A stretch of DNA of 64,000 bases from the NCBI GenBank assembly GCA_963668305.2, contig CAXXPN010000001.1:896001-960000 (forward strand), written 5' to 3'. The notes beneath the pieces were generated by a model. That model searched no databases. It was not told the origin of the DNA and was given only the letters and a program-made list of their open reading frames with translations. Below, piece by piece: positions 50,237 through 59,873 of the stretch (the stretch's first letter is position 1; each line of letters opens with the position of its first letter). Made by a program: the position numbers and the translations under genes. Source of the DNA: Alphaproteobacteria bacterium (GTDB lineage: Bacteria; Pseudomonadota; Alphaproteobacteria; Bin95).

Positions 50237-51853
50237 ATGGCGCGGGGAAGACCCAGAGAACAGCGGAGCGAGGCGACGGCGAGGCCAAACGAAGGTGCAA
50301 CGACCGGCCATGAAGCCGAACTATGGGCGATGGCCGATGCGCTCCGCGGCTCAATGGATGCCGCCGAATACAAGCATGTGGTCCTTGGCCTCATCTTCCT
50401 GAAATACATCTCCGACGCCTTCGAGGAGCGTCGCGCGGCGGTGCTCGCCGAATGGGGCGCAGATGCCGCCGAGGATCGTGACGAGTATCTCGCCGAGAAT
50501 ATCTTCTGGGTTCCGCCTGAAGCCCGGTGGAATCGCCTGAAAGCACAGGCTCGGCAGCCGGAGATCGGTGAGGTCGTCGATAACGCCATGGCGGCGATCG
50601 AGCACGACAACACTATTCTCGAAGGCGTGCTGCCGAAGGACTATGCACGTCCGGCTCTCGACAAGCAGCGGCTCGGCCAACTCATCGACATGATCGGCAA
50701 TATCCGCGTGGGCGACGAAGAGGCCCGCTCGCGGGACGTGCTCGGCCGCGTCTATGAATACTTCCTGTCGCGGTTCGCGAGTGCGGAGGGCAAGAAGGGG
50801 GGCGAGTTCTACACTCCACGCTGTTTGGTCCGTCTGCTGGTCGAGATGCTTGAGCCGTACCGGGGCCGTGTCTATGACCCCTGCTGCGGCTCGTCCGGCA
50901 TGTTCGTCCAGTCGATCGAATTCATCCGGGCGCACGCGACCGGCAACGGCAATGGCGGCAGGGCAAGGGGCGATATCTCGATTTGGGGCCAGGAGTCCAA
51001 CTACACGACCTGGCGGCTGGCGAAGATGAACCTCGCCATTCGCGGCATTGAAGGCCGCATCGCACACGGCGACAGCTTTCACAACGACCGCCATCCCGAT
51101 CTCAAGGCCGACTTCATCCTTGCCAATCCGCCGTTCAACGTCTCGGACTGGGGCGGTGATCGGCTCGCGGACGACAAGCGCTGGAAGTATGGGACCCCGC
51201 CGAAAGGCAATGCCAACTTCGCCTGGGTGCAGCACATGGTCCATCATCTGGCGCCGGACGGCGCGGCCGGCTTCGTGCTTGCCAATGGATCGATGTCCTC
51301 GGCTCAGTCAGGCGAGGGCGCAATCCGCGAGAAGCTGATCGAAGCAGGACTCGTGGACTGCATGGTTGCCTTGCCGGGCCAGCTCTTCTACTCGACCCAG
51401 ATTCCTGCTTGCCTGTGGTTCTTGGCGCGGGCCCGGAGCGACGGCAGGTTCCGCGACCGGCGGGCCGAAATCCTGTTCATCGATGCCCGTGCGCTCGGGC
51501 GCATGGTGGATCGGACCCACCGCGAGTTGACCGACGAAGATATCGCGCGCATCGCCGATACTTATCATGCATGGCGCTCGGGCGAAGACGGGAGCAGCTA
51601 TGCCGATGTTCCCGGCTTCTGCCGGAGCACGCCGCTGGAAGAAGTGCGCAAGCATGGCCATGTGCTCACCCCTGGCCGCTATGTCGGCGCCCCACCGCGT
51701 GAGGAAGACGGCGAACCGTTCGAGGACAAGATGAAGCGGCTGGCGGCCAAGCTTCGCGAGCAACAGACCGCGGGCGCAAGGCTGGACGCAGCAATTGCCG
51801 GGAACCTTGAGAAACTCGGATTCGGGGGCGGGTTGCGAAATGTCGAACGATAA
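50237..51853 (+). CDS. hsdM: Type I RM methyltransferase subunit M
   Basis: [41 protein letters not shown]. Confidence 0.96.
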
Positions 51854-52253
51854 ACCTGCGATCGCGCCCTTCGAGCGCGCGATCCAACGCCTTGAAGAAG
51901 GGCTTGCGCGGTATCGAGCCGACACCGGCGATACCCAGATCCGCGACGGTCTGGTTCAGCGCTTCGAGTTCACCTACGAGCTGGGACACAAGGTTCTGAA
52001 GCGCTATCTCGAATATGCGTCGGCGAATCCCGAGCAATTCGACGAGATGACATTCCAGGACCTGATCCGTACCGCCAACGAACAAGGGCTGCTGCTCGGA
52101 GACTGGACCGACTGGCGCGGTTTCCGCGACATGCGTGCGCGGACCAGCCACACCTATAACGAAGACGTGGCGGTAGAGGTAGTCGAAGGCATTCCGCGCT
52201 TTGTCGAGGAAGCGGTCTACCTGCGTGATCGGTTGCAGAGGCGTCTGGCGTGA
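51840..52253 (+). CDS. HEPN RNase (HI0074 / nucleotidyltransferase substrate-binding family)
   Basis: [17 protein letters not shown]4-H motif RARTSH followed by TY. Confidence 0.9.
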
Positions 52254-53890
52254 GCGGGACAGCGCCACCAGTCGACCTCCGGCCCGACCATTGGACCATT
52301 GTGCGCGATGTCCTGCGGCTGCACATTCCGGATCGAAAGGTGCTGGCATTCGGGTCGCGCGCTACCTGGACCGCGAAGGATTATTCGGATCTTGATCTGG
52401 CCATCTTGGGCGACGGGATCCTGCCACTCAATATCGCGTCAGCACTGGCAGCGGGTTTCTCGGAGTCGGACCTGCCATTCAAGGTCGATCTGGTCGAATG
52501 GGCGAGCCTCGACGAGGCATTCCGCGATATCATTTGCCGAGATGGAGTCGAGGTACAGGGCTTTACGAACACAACAGAAGCAACGCGGTGTTCGCCACCA
52601 GAGCACGTAGACGCAGCCTCCCCGGCTAGTCGAACCTCGACTGACACCGGCAGACGACTGGTAACCGGCGAATGGCATGAAACTACTTTGGGTGACGTGC
52701 TTACCCTCAAGCGAGGCTACGATCTGCCCAGTCGCAAGCGCACAGACGGCCTTATTCCCGTCGTGTCGTCATCAGGAATCACGGATCATCACGTCGAAAG
52801 CAGGGTATCCGGTCCAGGCGTTGTGATCGGTCGATATGGCACGCTAGGGCAAGTATTCTTCATCCGAGGTGATTTCTGGCCACTCAACACGTCGCTGTAC
52901 GTTCATGACTTTAAAGGGAATGATCCACAGTTCATCAGCTATTTCCTTCGAGCGCTTGATTTTTCCGCCTATTCCGACAAGGCAGCAGTTCCAGGATTGA
53001 ATCGAAATCACCTACACCAAAATGTGGTCCAGATTCCAACCAATGTCACTAATCAACGTGCTATCGCGTTCATTCTCGGCAGTCTAGATGACAAGATCGA
53101 GCTGAACCGGCGTATGAACGAGACGCTGGAAGCGATGGCGCGGGCGATTTTCAAGGACTGGTTCGTAGATTTTGGACCCGTCCGCGCTAAGGTGGAAGGT
53201 CGTGATACCGGTTTTCCCCGGCACATTTCCGATCTCTTCCCCGACGGGTTTGTAGATTCCGAACTTGGCGAGGCTCCGGATGGGTGGGAGGTTCGACCTC
53301 TACCTGACCTGATCGCTGTCAATCCTCAACGGCGTTTACGGAAAGGCGAAATTGCGCCCTATTTGGATATGGCAAACATGCCGGTCAAAGGTCATGTTCC
53401 TGCTTCGGTCGTTAATCGTCGATTTGGTTCCGGGATGAGATTCTTGAATGGCGATACACTTGTCGCCCGTATTACACCGTGCTTCGAAAACGGCAAGACG
53501 GCTTATGTTGATTTCTTGCGGGCGGAACAGGTCGGTTGGGGTTCTACAGAGTATATTGTCCTGTGCTCCAAACCCCCGATCCCAAGTGAGTTCGCTTATT
53601 GCTTGGCGCGAAGTACTCGATTCCGGCAATTTGCTATACAAAGCATGACTGGCACGAGCGGCCGTCAACGCGTGCAAGCGAAGGCTTTGGATCAGTTCAT
53701 GCTCGCATGCCCAACCGGGCAAGTGGCCGTTGCCTTCGGAACTCTCGTCCGACCGATAATGTCCCGAGTGTCTGCGGCGGCTCGGGAAACCCAATCTCTT
53801 GCCAACTTACGAGACGCGCTGTTGCCGAAGCTCATGTCCGGCGAAATCTGCTTTCGTGCGGCCGAGAAGATCGTAGAGGCTGTAGCATGA
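52250..53890 (+). CDS. hsdS: Minimal nucleotidyltransferase (MNT) fused to type I RM specificity subunit S
   Basis: N-terminal FGSRATWTAKDYSDLDLA (GSX10DXD) and LPFKVDLV; then two TRDs with QRAIAFILGSLDDKIELNRRMN and LRDALLPKLMSGE. Confidence 0.9.
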   Translation: MSGTAPPVDLRPDHWTIVRDVLRLHIPDRKVLAFGSRATWTAKDYSDLDLAILGDGILPLNIASALAAGFSESDLPFKVDLVEWASLDEAFRDIICRDGVEVQGFTNTTEATRCSPPEHVDAASPASRTSTDTGRRLVTGEWHETTLGDVLTLKRGYDLPSRKRTDGLIPVVSSSGITDHHVESRVSGPGVVIGRYGTLGQVFFIRGDFWPLNTSLYVHDFKGNDPQFISYFLRALDFSAYSDKAAVPGLNRNHLHQNVVQIPTNVTNQRAIAFILGSLDDKIELNRRMNETLEAMARAIFKDWFVDFGPVRAKVEGRDTGFPRHISDLFPDGFVDSELGEAPDGWEVRPLPDLIAVNPQRRLRKGEIAPYLDMANMPVKGHVPASVVNRRFGSGMRFLNGDTLVARITPCFENGKTAYVDFLRAEQVGWGSTEYIVLCSKPPIPSEFAYCLARSTRFRQFAIQSMTGTSGRQRVQAKALDQFMLACPTGQVAVAFGTLVRPIMSRVSAAARETQSLANLRDALLPKLMSGEICFRAAEKIVEAVA

Positions 53891-59195: not shown

Positions 59196-59196
59196 A
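56815..59196 (+). CDS. Large transposase (N-terminal HTHs plus DDE-like core)
   Basis: HTH motifs; [28 protein letters not shown]; fills the IS. Confidence 0.85.
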
Positions 59197-59873
59197 ACCT
59201 TGCAGTGGAACTGTTGCAGAAGCTGCTGAAGGGTGAGCTCTCTATCCGTCGGCGCAAGAATATTGTCCAGGCGCGGTCGTTCTCAGAGATGCTGGAGCAC
59301 GCATTGCGGCGCTACCGGAATCGCTCCGTCGAAGCTGCTCAGGTCATCGAGGAATTGATCGGGCTGGCTCGCGATATGCGTGAGGCGAATGCTCGCGGCG
59401 AGCTGCTGGGCCTCAACGACGACGAGCTGGCTTTCTACGATGCGCTGGAAACCAGTGATAGCGCTGTTCAGGTGCTGGGAGACGCGACCCTGTGCGATAT
59501 CGCGCGCGACTTGGTCGAGACCGTGCGCGGCAATGTCACCATCGATTGGACGCTGCGTGAGAATGTCCGCGCCAATCTCCGGCGCCTCGTCAGGCGCATC
59601 CTCCGCAAATATGGGTATCCGCCCGACAAGCAGGAACAGGCGACGCGGACGGTGCTGGAACAGGCCGAGGTGCTGTCGGCCGGCTGGGTCGACACACGAT
59701 CAAGTGTAAGCCTTATGGATGGCATTCAGGGGTGAAGGCCCATCGAACCCGTCTATGCTGCTACCCTTCCTCCGTATCCGAGAACTTTAAAGATGCTTGA
59801 CCATTGCCTTGCCATCCCCATATTCATGAGCGAAGAAATCGATATCCAACAGAGATAAATTGAGGCATAGGCA

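What the first reader, a model, noticed from the sequence alone, without database searches (positions are those of the whole stretch)
50237..59735. Type I RM with an embedded HEPN RNase whose MNT antitoxin is fused to HsdS
Seen: hsdM overlaps a HEPN gene (RARTSH-TY), which overlaps a single ORF with an intact GSX10DXD nucleotidyltransferase joined without a stop to a two-TRD HsdS, followed by hsdR. Established: in HEPN/MNT pairs (HepT/MntA type) the MNT neutralises the RNase by AMPylating a Tyr next to the RX4H motif, and PrrC is a HEPN-type nuclease that guards a type I RM. Inference: tethering the antitoxin to the specificity subunit links RNase silencing to RM complex integrity. Anti-restriction proteins, or loss or swapping of hsdS, could then release the toxin, giving a guard/abortive-infection or addiction system mechanistically distinct from PrrC.
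Basis: partly seen in the sequence, partly recalled or inferred. Interest (0 to 1): 0.78.

Follow-up and report, generated by a model that had tools for sequence, protein, structure and literature searches.

The report
Antitoxin fused to restriction specificity subunit
A restriction-modification operon carries a small RNase toxin gene whose neutralising enzyme is joined to the operon's DNA-recognition subunit; this layout is widespread in bacteria but I found no description of it in print.

Summary
Window 50237-59735 encodes hsdM, a 137-aa HI0074-family HEPN protein (RX4HXY intact), one 546-aa ORF joining an HI0073-family minimal nucleotidyltransferase (GSX10DXD intact) to a two-TRD HsdS through a roughly 30-residue disordered linker, and an hsdR split by an insertion sequence. 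The fusion is neither an artefact nor a one-off. 859 database proteins of 300-956 aa match the MNT part, and 117 of the 120 listed also carry the HsdS domain. In 15 of 15 fused genomic loci, from at least ten phyla, a HEPN gene lies directly upstream. A finished Zymomonas mobilis plasmid has the same operon. Unfused hsdM-HEPN-MNT-hsdS-hsdR operons also exist, and a tree of the MNT domain needs at least three switches between fused and unfused. The closest studied relative is the Legionella pneumophila type VII HEPN-MNT pair, in which MNT poly-AMPylates the motif tyrosine. The hsdM/hsdS junction of this RM family is a slot for varied toxin and Abi genes. Most likely this is a type VII toxin-antitoxin cassette in that slot, with antitoxin supply tied to hsdS expression. 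It is a new variant of a known kind.

The parts
50237..51853 (+). hsdM, type I methyltransferase subunit (538 aa)
   Evidence: Pfam N6_Mtase 2.8e-103 and HsdM_N 1.3e-29. PADLOC MTase_I 6.8e-217.
51840..52253 (+). HEPN gene of the HI0074 / NTase_sub_bind family, 137 aa from the ATG (an upstream TTG at 51795 is an alternative start). Putative RNase toxin with Q40/E43 and R99-x4-H104-x-Y106.
   Evidence: PF08780 7.2e-35 and TIGR01987 2.2e-24. PDB HI0074 1jog and the L. pneumophila HEPN toxin 8xdj. R, H and Y are invariant in the 18-sequence alignment A2.
52250..52567 (+). MNT domain (residues 1-106 of the fusion protein), HI0073-like minimal nucleotidyltransferase with GSX10DXD (G35 S36 ... D47 L48 D49) and D80
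   Evidence: PF18765 4.9e-08. PDB HI0073 1no5 at 3.8e-20. G35, S36, D47, D49 and D80 are invariant in A1. The NCBIfam MntA_antitoxin model scores 32.2 bits, below its cut-off of 60.
52568..52657 (+). Linker (residues 107-136), in frame with no stop codon, unconserved and predicted disordered
   Evidence: DNA read directly. Length and sequence vary in A1. AlphaFold2 pLDDT is below 50 for residues 107-135.
52658..53890 (+). HsdS part (residues 137-546): two target-recognition domains plus the central and C-terminal conserved helices
   Evidence: Methylase_S 5.7e-13. PADLOC Specificity_I profile positions 3-445 of 446, 5.1e-117. The AlphaFold2 model has two beta-rich domains and two long helices at 266-306 and 490-530.
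54012..56658 (+). hsdR, 5' part (nuclease, SWI2/SNF2 motor, and first half of the C-terminal domain), cut off by an insertion sequence
   Evidence: HSDR_N, SWI2_SNF2, T1R_D3-like and T1RH-like_C profile positions 1-170. TIGR00348 2.6e-175.
56659..59196 (+). Insertion sequence inside hsdR. It has 18-nt perfect terminal inverted repeats and a 793-aa transposase (56815-59196), and is flanked by a 3-5 bp direct repeat (ACC to AACCT, depending on where the ends are drawn).
   Evidence: Inverted repeat I1. Flanks read. PF21804 Transposase_29 4.9e-100.
59197..59735 (+). hsdR, 3' part, in the same frame as the 5' part
   Evidence: T1RH-like_C profile positions 170-327, 1.2e-69. PADLOC REase_I profile positions 866-1023.

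Best explanation
This is a type VII toxin-antitoxin cassette of the HI0074/HI0073 family. It consists of a HEPN RNase toxin and an MNT adenylyltransferase antitoxin, and it sits as cargo in the hsdM/hsdS junction of a type I restriction-modification operon carried on a mobile element. The family's own gene order is toxin first, then antitoxin. Once the cassette is inserted, the MNT gene therefore abuts hsdS, and here the two have become one reading frame.

Shown:
- the anatomy;
- intact catalytic and acceptor motifs in both proteins;
- the recurrence of the fusion across many phyla, always with a HEPN gene upstream;
- the existence of unfused versions in the same slot.

Inferred from the studied Legionella homologue: the MNT domain poly-AMPylates Tyr106 of the HEPN protein and so keeps its RNase activity off.

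Inferred by me: the fusion makes antitoxin supply strictly dependent on translation and stability of HsdS. Anything that stops hsdS expression while HEPN is still being made leaves new HEPN unmodified and halts the cell. Examples are loss or replacement of the gene, or phage shut-off of host expression. On this reading the cassette is a back-up abortive-infection or addiction layer that is genetically welded to the specificity subunit. It is not a sensor of the assembled RM complex.
For: Family assignment
- HEPN: PF08780 and TIGR01987.
- PDB matches: HI0074 at 3.8e-39 and the L. pneumophila HEPN toxin at 2.8e-24 with the profile; HI0073 at 3.8e-20 for the MNT part.

Motifs
- The window has RX4HXY and the Q/E pair that align with Legionella Q44/E47, R98, H103 and Y105.
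- R, H and Y are invariant in 18 of 18 aligned HEPNs. Seven HEPN ORFs were left out of that alignment: five degenerate ones, L006 and a duplicate.
- GSX10DXD was found in 119 of 121 fusion proteins within the first 200 residues. One more has it at residue 284.

Mechanism in the relative (PMC11586414, sections 7, 9 and 11)
- HEPN is toxic in E. coli and is a Mg-dependent RNase.
- A roughly 108-aa MNT poly-AMPylates Tyr105.

Recurrence
- 859 proteins of 300-956 aa match residues 1-140 at E<=1e-3, out of 1809 candidates. Of the 120 listed, 117 carry PF01420.
- Of the best 80 genomic loci, 15 have the fusion, and 15 of those 15 have a HEPN ORF directly upstream.
- Z. mobilis ATCC 10988 plasmid pZMOB01 is annotated hsdM / HI0074 family protein / 527-aa 'subunit S' with the MNT match inside it / hsdR.

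Cargo slot
- In related loci of the same RM family, the hsdM-hsdS gap holds Fic/DOC, Abi_2, Schlafen-AlbA_2, TIR, HigB, HicA, a DUF86 HepT with its MNT, YhcG and M78 genes (40 ORFs scanned).

Gene order
- HEPN then MNT, with overlapping genes, in 3 of 3 stand-alone pairs inspected.

Ease of fusion
- In an Acetobacter ascendens plasmid, only an in-frame stop and 12 nt separate MNT from hsdS.
- The MNT tree needs at least 3 fused/unfused changes (25 rows).

Complex prediction (two HEPN copies plus MNT residues 1-106)
- Weak support: score 0.32, best of 3 controls 0.02.
- The mark was reached by 116 of 157 solved complexes and 2 of 215 mismatched pairs. At 0.60 or under it was reached by only 18 of those 157 and by both mismatches that passed.
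- The runs agree in at least 92% of contacts, and partner pLDDT is at least 87.
- A similar complex has been solved (8xeh/8xem), so this may only reflect that likeness.

Mobile context
- A TrwC relaxase lies upstream, and the island's GC is 53-64% against about 72% in the flank.
Against: - No toxicity, AMPylation or phage assay exists for this protein or for any fused member that I could find.
- The NCBIfam MntA_antitoxin model scores below its cut-off (32 against 60 bits).
- PADLOC v2 has no model that matches the HEPN protein, so it is not a recognised defence gene.
- Five of 25 HEPN ORFs in the surveyed loci lack RX4HXY. Two of these (L015, L030) are the only HEPN copy in their locus. Some copies may therefore be decaying or doing something else.
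- In the Legionella study, R98A and H103A did not abolish RNase activity or toxicity, so the motif conservation I rely on speaks for AMPylation control rather than for catalysis.
- My claim about the trigger (interrupted MNT-HsdS synthesis) is inference only.
- AMPylated toxin is stable unless it is de-AMPylated, so the kinetics may not allow a fast response.
- The 80 loci were chosen by similarity to the fused query, so they give no unbiased prevalence.
Confidence: 0.5

Rival explanations
1. Guard model. Because the MNT antitoxin is part of HsdS, its activity or stability depends on the assembled HsdM2-HsdS complex. Anti-restriction proteins such as Ocr, ArdA or Stp, or loss of complex partners, switch the antitoxin off, and the HEPN RNase aborts the infection. 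This would be a PrrC-like second line of defence with an enzymatic antitoxin.
For: - The fusion is widespread and kept over long divergence. The MNT part stays 55-81% identical while the TRDs are hypervariable.
- The fusion arose or was lost at least three times.
- A HEPN gene is always adjacent: 15 of 15 fused loci.
- The literature proposes that RM subunits hold embedded HEPN toxins in check by analogy with PrrC (PMC3710099 passages). PMC3632139 notes that immunity loci seem to lack antitoxins (passage), so an antitoxin built into an RM subunit would fill that gap.
Against: - Unfused HEPN-MNT-hsdS operons occupy the same slot: 6 of the 80 loci, and the Acetobacter plasmids.
- The linker has no conserved feature and varies in length across the 25 aligned fusions. 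In some it holds a whole second MNT domain. It is predicted disordered.
- In the studied relative, neutralisation is covalent, binding is transient and the stoichiometry is 1 MNT to 4 HEPN. Disturbing a complex would therefore not release already modified toxin.
- Many fused loci lack an intact hsdR. Of 15, 6 are intact, 6 are split or partial and 3 have none in the flank, much like the other loci. In the window itself hsdR is broken while the cassette is intact.
Confidence: 0.2
2. Selfish stabiliser with a neutral fusion. The cassette is an ordinary plasmid/ICE addiction module that landed in a permissive cargo slot. The fusion to HsdS is a harmless loss of a stop codon between adjacent or overlapping genes. 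It persists only because the flexible linker lets both halves work, and it has no role in phage defence.
For: - The locus lies on a mobile element: TrwC relaxase upstream and a GC drop.
- Plasmid-borne examples exist in Zymomonas and Acetobacter.
- One stop codon separates the fused and unfused states.
- Fused and unfused rows interleave on the tree.
- Stand-alone HI0074/HI0073 pairs sit on plasmids with no RM genes nearby.
Against: - The slot is filled in related loci with Abi and defence-type genes (Abi_2, TIR, Schlafen, Fic), which suggests selection for defence cargo.
- The number of distinct fused clusters is large: 859 hits of 300-956 aa, against 1171 hits under 300 aa, which include pieces cut at contig ends. 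That is more than I would expect from a purely neutral accident. No neutral expectation was computed.
Confidence: 0.22
3. A domesticated two-protein nucleotidyltransferase. HEPN acts as the substrate-binding subunit, as originally proposed for HI0073/HI0074, and the pair, recruited to the RM complex through HsdS, nucleotidylates some other target such as an RM subunit, incoming DNA ends or a phage protein. It would not form a toxin-antitoxin pair.
For: - Pfam and NCBIfam still name the HEPN family 'nucleotidyltransferase substrate binding'.
- PMC3710099 describes exaptation of HEPN as a substrate-binding domain in fused MNT-HEPN enzymes (passage).
- Some HEPN copies in these loci have lost RX4HXY.
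Against: - The window's HEPN keeps the Tyr acceptor and the Q/E metal site of the Legionella toxin.
- That close relative is experimentally toxic and is itself the AMPylation target (PMC11586414, sections 7 and 9).
- According to PMC3710099, exapted HEPNs typically lose the catalytic residues, which is not the case here.
Confidence: 0.06
4. Artefact or pseudogene. The single ORF results from a sequencing or assembly error, or from a recent inactivating mutation of a stop codon, and the product is non-functional.
For: - hsdR in the same operon is broken by an insertion sequence, so the locus is partly decayed.
Against: - The same architecture, with the same start position, appears in hundreds of independent database proteins, in 15 genome loci and in a finished RefSeq plasmid.
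- The catalytic residues and the HsdS conserved regions are intact.
- The AlphaFold2 model folds both halves with confidence: mean pLDDT 82.2, pTM 0.65.
Confidence: 0.02

Closest known systems
Legionella pneumophila HEPN-MNT type VII toxin-antitoxin (PDB 8xdj, 8xeh, 8xem; PMC11586414)
   Same: - Same HEPN family (HI0074-like; profile match 2.8e-24).
- Same short type of MNT without a C-terminal alpha-4 helix, about 105 residues before the linker here.
- Same RX4HXY tyrosine, Q/E metal site and GSX10DXD motif.
- Same toxin-then-antitoxin order as in related stand-alone pairs.
   Different: Here the cassette sits between hsdM and hsdS of a type I RM operon, and the MNT is the N-terminal domain of HsdS. 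Nothing about this copy has been tested experimentally.
Haemophilus influenzae HI0073/HI0074 (PDB 1no5, 1jog)
   Same: These are the closest solved structures by sequence: MNT 3.8e-20 and HEPN profile 3.8e-39.
   Different: They are two separate small proteins described as a two-protein nucleotidyltransferase. I have no RM context for them, and their genomic context was not examined here.
Shewanella oneidensis HepT/MntA and Aphanizomenon HEPN/MNT (DUF86-type type VII TA)
   Same: The principle is the same: MNT AMPylates the tyrosine of RX4HXY in a HEPN RNase (as summarised in PMC11586414, sections 4 and 7).
   Different: - The HEPN belongs to a different Pfam family (PF01934 HepT-like, against PF08780 here).
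- Their MNTs are longer (about 139-150 aa, with an alpha-4 helix).
- Their gene order is antitoxin first, as stated in PMC3710099.
- A DUF86-type pair in that order occupies the same RM slot in locus L057.
PrrC / EcoprrI (anticodon nuclease guarding a type Ic RM system)
   Same: A HEPN-superfamily RNase is encoded inside a type I hsd operon, and in PrrC's case it is shown to act as a second line of defence when restriction is blocked (PMC3710099 passage).
   Different: PrrC is a large ABC-ATPase-HEPN fusion that is silenced by binding the RM proteins. Here the HEPN is a 137-aa protein with its own enzymatic antitoxin, and the antitoxin, not the toxin, is joined to the RM complex.
HEPN and other toxin genes embedded in RM operons (immunity-suicide coupling; PMC3710099, PMC3506569, PMC3632139)
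   Same: The general phenomenon is the same: toxin or Abi genes sit inside type I RM operons. The related loci here show Fic/DOC, Abi_2, Schlafen and other genes in the same slot.
   Different: The passages I read report HEPN fusions only to nucleases, helicases and ATPases, and state that immunity loci seem not to encode antitoxins. An antitoxin fused to HsdS is not mentioned in them.

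Membership tests
Type VII HEPN/MNT toxin-antitoxin, HI0074/HI0073 subfamily | Toxin is a HEPN protein of the NTase_sub_bind / HI0074 family | tested here: met
   PF08780 120.2 bits (cut-off 31.8) and TIGR01987 85.9 bits (cut-off 55.8). PDB 1jog and 8xdj.
Type VII HEPN/MNT toxin-antitoxin, HI0074/HI0073 subfamily | RX4HXY motif with the tyrosine that accepts AMP | tested here: met
   RARTSHTY at R99-Y106. Aligns with Legionella R98/H103/Y105. Invariant in 18 of 18 sequences in A2.
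Type VII HEPN/MNT toxin-antitoxin, HI0074/HI0073 subfamily | Antitoxin is a minimal nucleotidyltransferase with GSX10DXD and a third acidic residue | tested here: met
   GSRATWTAKDYSDLD plus D80. HI0073 match 3.8e-20. However, the NCBIfam MntA_antitoxin model scores 32.2 bits, below its cut-off of 60. That model appears to be built on a different MNT subfamily, which is my reading and was not tested.
Type VII HEPN/MNT toxin-antitoxin, HI0074/HI0073 subfamily | Two adjacent, co-oriented, overlapping genes | tested here: met
   4-nt overlap (GTGA) at 52250-52253. Same order as 3 of 3 stand-alone pairs inspected.
Type VII HEPN/MNT toxin-antitoxin, HI0074/HI0073 subfamily | Antitoxin is a free-standing small protein | tested here: not met
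   Here it is the N-terminal domain of a 546-aa HsdS.
Type VII HEPN/MNT toxin-antitoxin, HI0074/HI0073 subfamily | HEPN is toxic and is neutralised by MNT-catalysed AMPylation | not testable with these tools
   Known only for the Legionella relative (PMC11586414, sections 7 and 9). The complex prediction gave weak support only.
Type I restriction-modification system | HsdM with the N6-adenine methyltransferase domain | tested here: met
Type I restriction-modification system | HsdS with two TRDs and the central and C-terminal conserved regions | tested here: met
Type I restriction-modification system | Intact HsdR (nuclease, SF2 motor and C-terminal domain in one polypeptide) | tested here: not met
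   All domains are present, but the gene is split by an insertion sequence at 56659-59196. At most, methylation can be active in this copy.
PrrC-type RM guard | ABC-ATPase domain fused N-terminally to the HEPN anticodon nuclease | tested here: not met
   The HEPN protein is 137-152 aa and has only the PF08780 match.
PrrC-type RM guard | Gene embedded in a type I hsd operon | tested here: met
   It lies between hsdM and hsdS.
PrrC-type RM guard | Nuclease silenced by the RM proteins and unleashed by an anti-restriction factor | not testable with these tools
   No computation here bears on this feature.

The most novel reading that the evidence does not exclude
The MNT-HsdS fusion makes the activity or lifetime of an enzymatic antitoxin contingent on assembly of the HsdM2-HsdS methyltransferase core. 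Phage anti-restriction proteins, or loss of RM partners, would then stop AMPylation of newly made HEPN and trigger RNase-mediated abortive infection. This would be a widespread RM guard that works differently from PrrC, and a direct molecular embodiment of the immunity-suicide coupling hypothesis.
Probability: 0.2. Interest if true: 0.8.

Novelty: new variant of a known kind. Interest (0 to 1): 0.55.

Why it matters
Toxin genes inside restriction-modification operons have long been proposed to couple immunity to suicide or dormancy. Apart from PrrC, the physical link between the toxin's control and the RM machinery has been missing. One review notes that such loci seem to lack antitoxins (PMC3632139, passage).

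Here a bona fide enzymatic antitoxin is covalently part of the RM specificity subunit. This happens repeatedly and across many phyla, and natural unfused controls sit in the same slot. That makes the coupling question directly testable with simple constructs: fused against split, wild type against a DxD mutant, and with or without anti-restriction proteins.

It also matters for annotation. These proteins are currently labelled only 'restriction endonuclease subunit S', and one PADLOC specificity-subunit profile silently includes the MNT domain. Defence-system catalogues therefore overlook the embedded toxin-antitoxin pair.

Tried and rejected
1. **Zymomonas ZM4 lead.** Lal et al. 2021 (PMC8432527; section 5 and passages read) describe a plasmid type I system whose HsdSp has two CDD superfamilies and a skipped gene number between hsdM and hsdS. 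I suspected an MNT-HsdS whose deletion was viable. The pZM32 record (the accession was recalled from memory and resolved correctly) shows a plain hsdR-hsdM-hsdS with a 420-aa HsdS and no HEPN or MNT. The paper therefore says nothing about this architecture.

2. **Shewanella paper.** The 'hsdS' occurrences in PMC4621449 are only strain genotypes.

3. **Literature searches for a prior description of the fusion.** I ran, plus term look-ups inside PMC3710099, PMC12839542, PMC12409362, PMC6563490, PMC3506569 and PMC3632139. None mentions an MNT joined to HsdS. Figures, the supplements of those papers, REBASE and subscription journals were not seen, so a prior mention (for example in Figure 5 or Additional file 1 of PMC3710099) cannot be excluded.

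4. **Enrichment of broken hsdR next to the cassette.** Counts as intact / split or partial / absent / running off the locus:
   - fused loci: 6 / 6 / 3 / 0;
   - other loci: 28 / 10 / 12 / 9.
   The result is confounded by MAG quality and locus ends, and I draw no conclusion.

5. **Odd multi-domain hits P0115, P0054 and P0132 (hsdM tail plus HEPN plus MNT in one ORF).** They start in mid-gene and look like fragment or read-through calls. I did not pursue them.

6. **Prevalence.** The 80 loci were picked by similarity to the fused query and by a pattern taken from the MNT motif, so the 15 of 80 is not a frequency.

8. **Complex prediction.** It gave only weak support, and a similar complex has been solved, so it adds little.

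Full report
**What is there**

The stretch 50.2-59.7 kb has 53-64% G+C. The sequence upstream of about 48.5 kb has about 72%. A 1514-aa TrwC-type relaxase gene lies just upstream on the other strand (43031-47578). The locus therefore sits on a conjugative or integrative element.

On the + strand the ORFs are as follows.

- **hsdM**, 50237-51853: N6_Mtase 2.8e-103 and HsdM_N.
- **HEPN gene**, ending at 52253: PF08780 NTase_sub_bind 7.2e-35; TIGR01987 HI0074 family, above its cut-off. The first ATG is at 51840 and gives a 137-aa protein that overlaps hsdM by 14 nt.
- **One 546-aa ORF**, from GTG 52250 (overlapping the HEPN stop by 4 nt) to 53890.
- **hsdR**, from 54012.

The DNA between the nucleotidyltransferase part and the HsdS part of the 546-aa ORF has no stop codon.

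hsdR carries all its domains but is split by a 2.5-kb insertion sequence. The element has perfect 18-nt inverted repeats at 56659-56676 and 59179-59196 and encodes a PF21804 transposase. It is flanked by a 3-5 bp direct repeat. The Pfam C-terminal-domain profile stops at position 170 before the element and resumes at position 170 after it, in the same frame. This copy can at most methylate; it cannot restrict.

**The fusion protein**

- Residues 1-106 are an HI0073-type minimal nucleotidyltransferase. The PDB match to 1no5 is 3.8e-20, and the motif is GSRATWTAKDYSDLD, which is GSX10DXD.
- Residues 107-136 are a linker.
- Residues 137-546 are a complete HsdS (PADLOC Specificity_I profile positions 3-445 of 446, 5.1e-117).
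- An AlphaFold2 model built on 25 homologues (mean pLDDT 82.2, pTM 0.65) folds both halves. Residues 107-135 fall below pLDDT 50.

**Is the fusion real and recurrent?**

I searched residues 1-140 against database proteins of 300-956 aa. This gave 859 hits at E<=1e-3 among 1809 candidates. Of the 120 listed, 117 carry the HsdS Pfam domain. Two hits have the same length as the window protein and are 94% and 72% identical.

The GSX10DXD motif is present in 119 of 121 proteins within the first 200 residues. One of the two misses has the motif at residue 284. The other has GP in place of GS.

An alignment of 25 fusions (A1) shows the following.

- The MNT domain is highly conserved. G35, S36, D47, D49 and D80 are invariant.
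- The linker varies freely in length and sequence.
- The TRDs are hypervariable.
- The central and C-terminal HsdS helices are conserved.
- Some members carry two MNT domains of different subtypes in tandem before HsdS (P0010).

A scan of one genome per species found 576 relatives, of which the best 80 loci were kept. I compared all their ORFs with the window's proteins by phmmer.

- **Fused:** 15 loci have MNT and HsdS in one ORF. All 15 have a HEPN ORF immediately upstream, in the order hsdM-HEPN-MNT::HsdS(-hsdR).
- **Taxa of the fused loci:** by record title they are Gamma- and Alphaproteobacteria, Magnetococcales, Acidobacteriota, Chloroflexota and Dehalococcoidia, Thermodesulfobacteriota, Zixiibacteriota, Myxococcota, Nitrospinota, Actinomycetota and Rhodothermota.
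- **Unfused:** six further loci have MNT and hsdS as separate genes in the same order. HEPN is visible upstream in 5 of them; the sixth starts at a contig edge.
- **Other:** one locus has a HEPN gene after hsdS and no MNT. The remaining 58 are plain operons of the same RM family.
- **Caveat:** these numbers are not a prevalence, because the loci were chosen by likeness to the fused query.

Finished plasmids of cultured bacteria show the same layouts.

- Zymomonas mobilis ATCC 10988 pZMOB01 is annotated as methyltransferase / 'HI0074 family nucleotidyltransferase substrate-binding subunit' / a 527-aa 'restriction endonuclease subunit S' that contains the MNT match / hsdR.
- Acetobacter plasmids carry the unfused version. 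In one of them only an in-frame stop and 12 nt separate MNT from hsdS.

A maximum-likelihood tree of 25 MNT domains (16 fused, 9 unfused) needs four fused/unfused changes, and its well-supported branches force at least three. A search for short relatives found 1171 proteins under 300 aa. Several of these are pieces cut at contig ends, so that count mixes free MNTs with fragments.

**What the cassette is**

The HEPN profile (A2, 18 sequences) matches PDB HI0074 at 3.8e-39 and the Legionella pneumophila 'HEPN toxin' (8xdj, 8xeh, 8xem) at 2.8e-24.

The paper on that system (PMC11586414; I read sections 7, 9 and 11 and further passages) reports the following.

- HEPN arrests E. coli growth and cleaves rRNA.
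- Its activity depends on Mg2+ bound by Q44 and E47, not on R98 or H103.
[quoted passage not shown] This needs the GSX10DXD residues.
- Binding is transient, with one MNT per HEPN tetramer.

The window's HEPN aligns with Q40/E43 and R99/H104/Y106 at those positions. R, H and Y are invariant in A2.

Across all 25 HEPN ORFs of the surveyed loci, 20 have RX4HXY and 5 do not. Three of those five are extra copies in loci with two cassettes. Two (L015, L030) are the only copy in their locus.

A complex prediction with two HEPN copies and MNT residues 1-106 gave weak support. The score was 0.32 and the best of 3 controls was 0.02. The mark was reached by 116 of 157 solved complexes and 2 of 215 mismatched pairs. 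At 0.60 or under it was reached by only 18 of those 157 and by both mismatches that passed. The runs agree in at least 92% of contacts, and partner pLDDT is at least 87. A similar complex has been solved, so this shows likeness at best.

**Why MNT lies next to hsdS**

PMC3710099 states that in MNT-HEPN dyads the MNT is almost always upstream (passage). The three stand-alone HI0074/HI0073 pairs I inspected on plasmids all have HEPN first and MNT second, with overlapping genes. Toxin-first order is therefore a trait of this subfamily. When such a cassette sits between hsdM and hsdS, MNT abuts hsdS and the loss of one stop codon fuses them.

A DUF86-type pair in the usual antitoxin-first order occupies the same slot, unfused, in locus L057.

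**The slot**

In 40 ORFs taken from the hsdM-hsdS gaps of related loci, Pfam finds the following.

- Fic/DOC, in six loci
- Abi_2, in two loci
- Schlafen-AlbA_2 with HATPase_c_4, in three loci
- TIR, an AAA_21 ATPase, HigB, HicA, HepT-like HEPN, peptidase M78 and a YhcG nuclease

This junction is therefore a cargo site for toxin and abortive-infection genes in this RM family. That fits the published picture of toxins embedded in RM operons (PMC3710099, PMC3506569 and PMC3632139; passages).

**How it most likely works**

*Shown:* the anatomy, the motifs, the recurrence and the obligatory HEPN neighbour.

*Inferred from the Legionella homologue:* the MNT domain AMPylates Tyr106 and silences the RNase.

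*My inference:* the fusion (or, in the unfused forms, tight adjacency or overlap of the MNT and hsdS genes) ties antitoxin supply to hsdS expression and to the fate of the HsdS protein. Loss or replacement of hsdS, or a stop in host gene expression while HEPN is still being made, would then leave HEPN unmodified. This gives a back-up abortive or addictive layer welded to the specificity gene.

This remains possible, but I found nothing that supports it specifically. Several observations weigh against simple tethering.

- Unfused operons occupy the same slot.
- The linker is unconserved and disordered.
- In the relative, modification is covalent and contact is transient.
- The cassette persists in loci with broken or missing hsdR, including this one.

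**Novelty**

The components are known, and so is the general idea of a HEPN toxin inside a type I RM operon with PrrC as the paradigm. I found no paper describing an MNT antitoxin fused to HsdS, or the hsdM-HEPN-MNT-hsdS operon. The searches were made, with in-paper look-ups. Figures, supplements, REBASE and subscription journals were not seen.

Databases hold many such proteins under the bare name 'restriction endonuclease subunit S'. One PADLOC specificity-subunit profile includes the MNT domain, while the HEPN protein matches no PADLOC model.

I rate it a new variant of a known kind. It is of moderate-to-good interest because it offers natural fused and unfused pairs for testing whether RM systems and embedded toxins are mechanistically coupled.

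Noticed in passing
window 56659-59196: A 2.5-kb insertion sequence sits inside hsdR. It has perfect 18-nt terminal inverted repeats, a 793-aa PF21804 (Transposase_29) transposase with N-terminal HTH domains, and a 3-5 bp flanking direct repeat. Its G+C (about 70%) resembles the host flank rather than the RM island, which suggests a resident element hopped into an acquired operon.
   Followed up: partly
window 43031-47578 (- strand): A 1514-aa TrwC relaxase with an AAA_30/UvrD-like helicase lies directly upstream of the RM island. The whole region is probably part of a conjugative plasmid or ICE. No tRNA gene occurs in 40-64 kb.
   Followed up: partly
window 59874-60659 and 61504-62997: Downstream of hsdR, G+C drops to 47-50% over a 261-aa ORF with no Pfam match. 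A 497-aa protein with a eukaryotic-type Ser/Thr kinase domain follows (Pkinase 6.5e-17). These may be further defence-island cargo.
   Followed up: no
L005:6364-9392; L075:6836-9261; L080:6558-9967; L012:6103-8632: Some loci stack two cassettes: HEPN-MNT-HEPN-MNT::HsdS, MNT-HEPN-MNT::HsdS, a second HEPN-MNT pair after hsdS, or two HEPN genes in a row. The extra HEPN copies in L005, L012 and L080 have lost part of RX4HXY. Database protein P0010 has two MNT domains of different subtypes in tandem before HsdS.
   Followed up: partly
L015:6403-6996 and L030:6394-6996: In two unfused operons the only HEPN copy has no RX4HXY motif (the region reads SLNGGGEPDG or similar), while the neighbouring MNT keeps GSX10DXD. 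This could be a decaying toxin with a retained antitoxin, or a different mode of action.
   Followed up: no
L005 (whole 16.4-kb locus): A fused MNT::HsdS with two upstream HEPN genes has no detectable hsdM or hsdR within 7 kb on either side in a complete chromosome record. This may be an orphan specificity gene kept with its cassette.
   Followed up: no
L016:10080-13315, L018:3857-6894, L025:11414-14569: hsdR is encoded as two adjacent ORFs (about 183-211 aa plus about 862-867 aa), split at the same point in loci from different phyla. This could be a genuine two-gene variant rather than sequencing error.
   Followed up: no
L003, L004, L008, L027, L061, L078 (hsdM-hsdS gaps): Fic/DOC proteins with a C-terminal HTH are the most frequent other cargo in the same hsdM/hsdS slot, found in 6 loci. 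In L003 the Fic gene is itself interrupted by a DDE transposase.
   Followed up: partly
L058:9003-9434: A close relative of the window's HEPN (6e-45, RARTSHTY intact) lies after hsdS with no MNT detected anywhere in the locus. The locus is riddled with frameshifted hsdM and hsdR pieces, so assembly quality may explain this.
   Followed up: no
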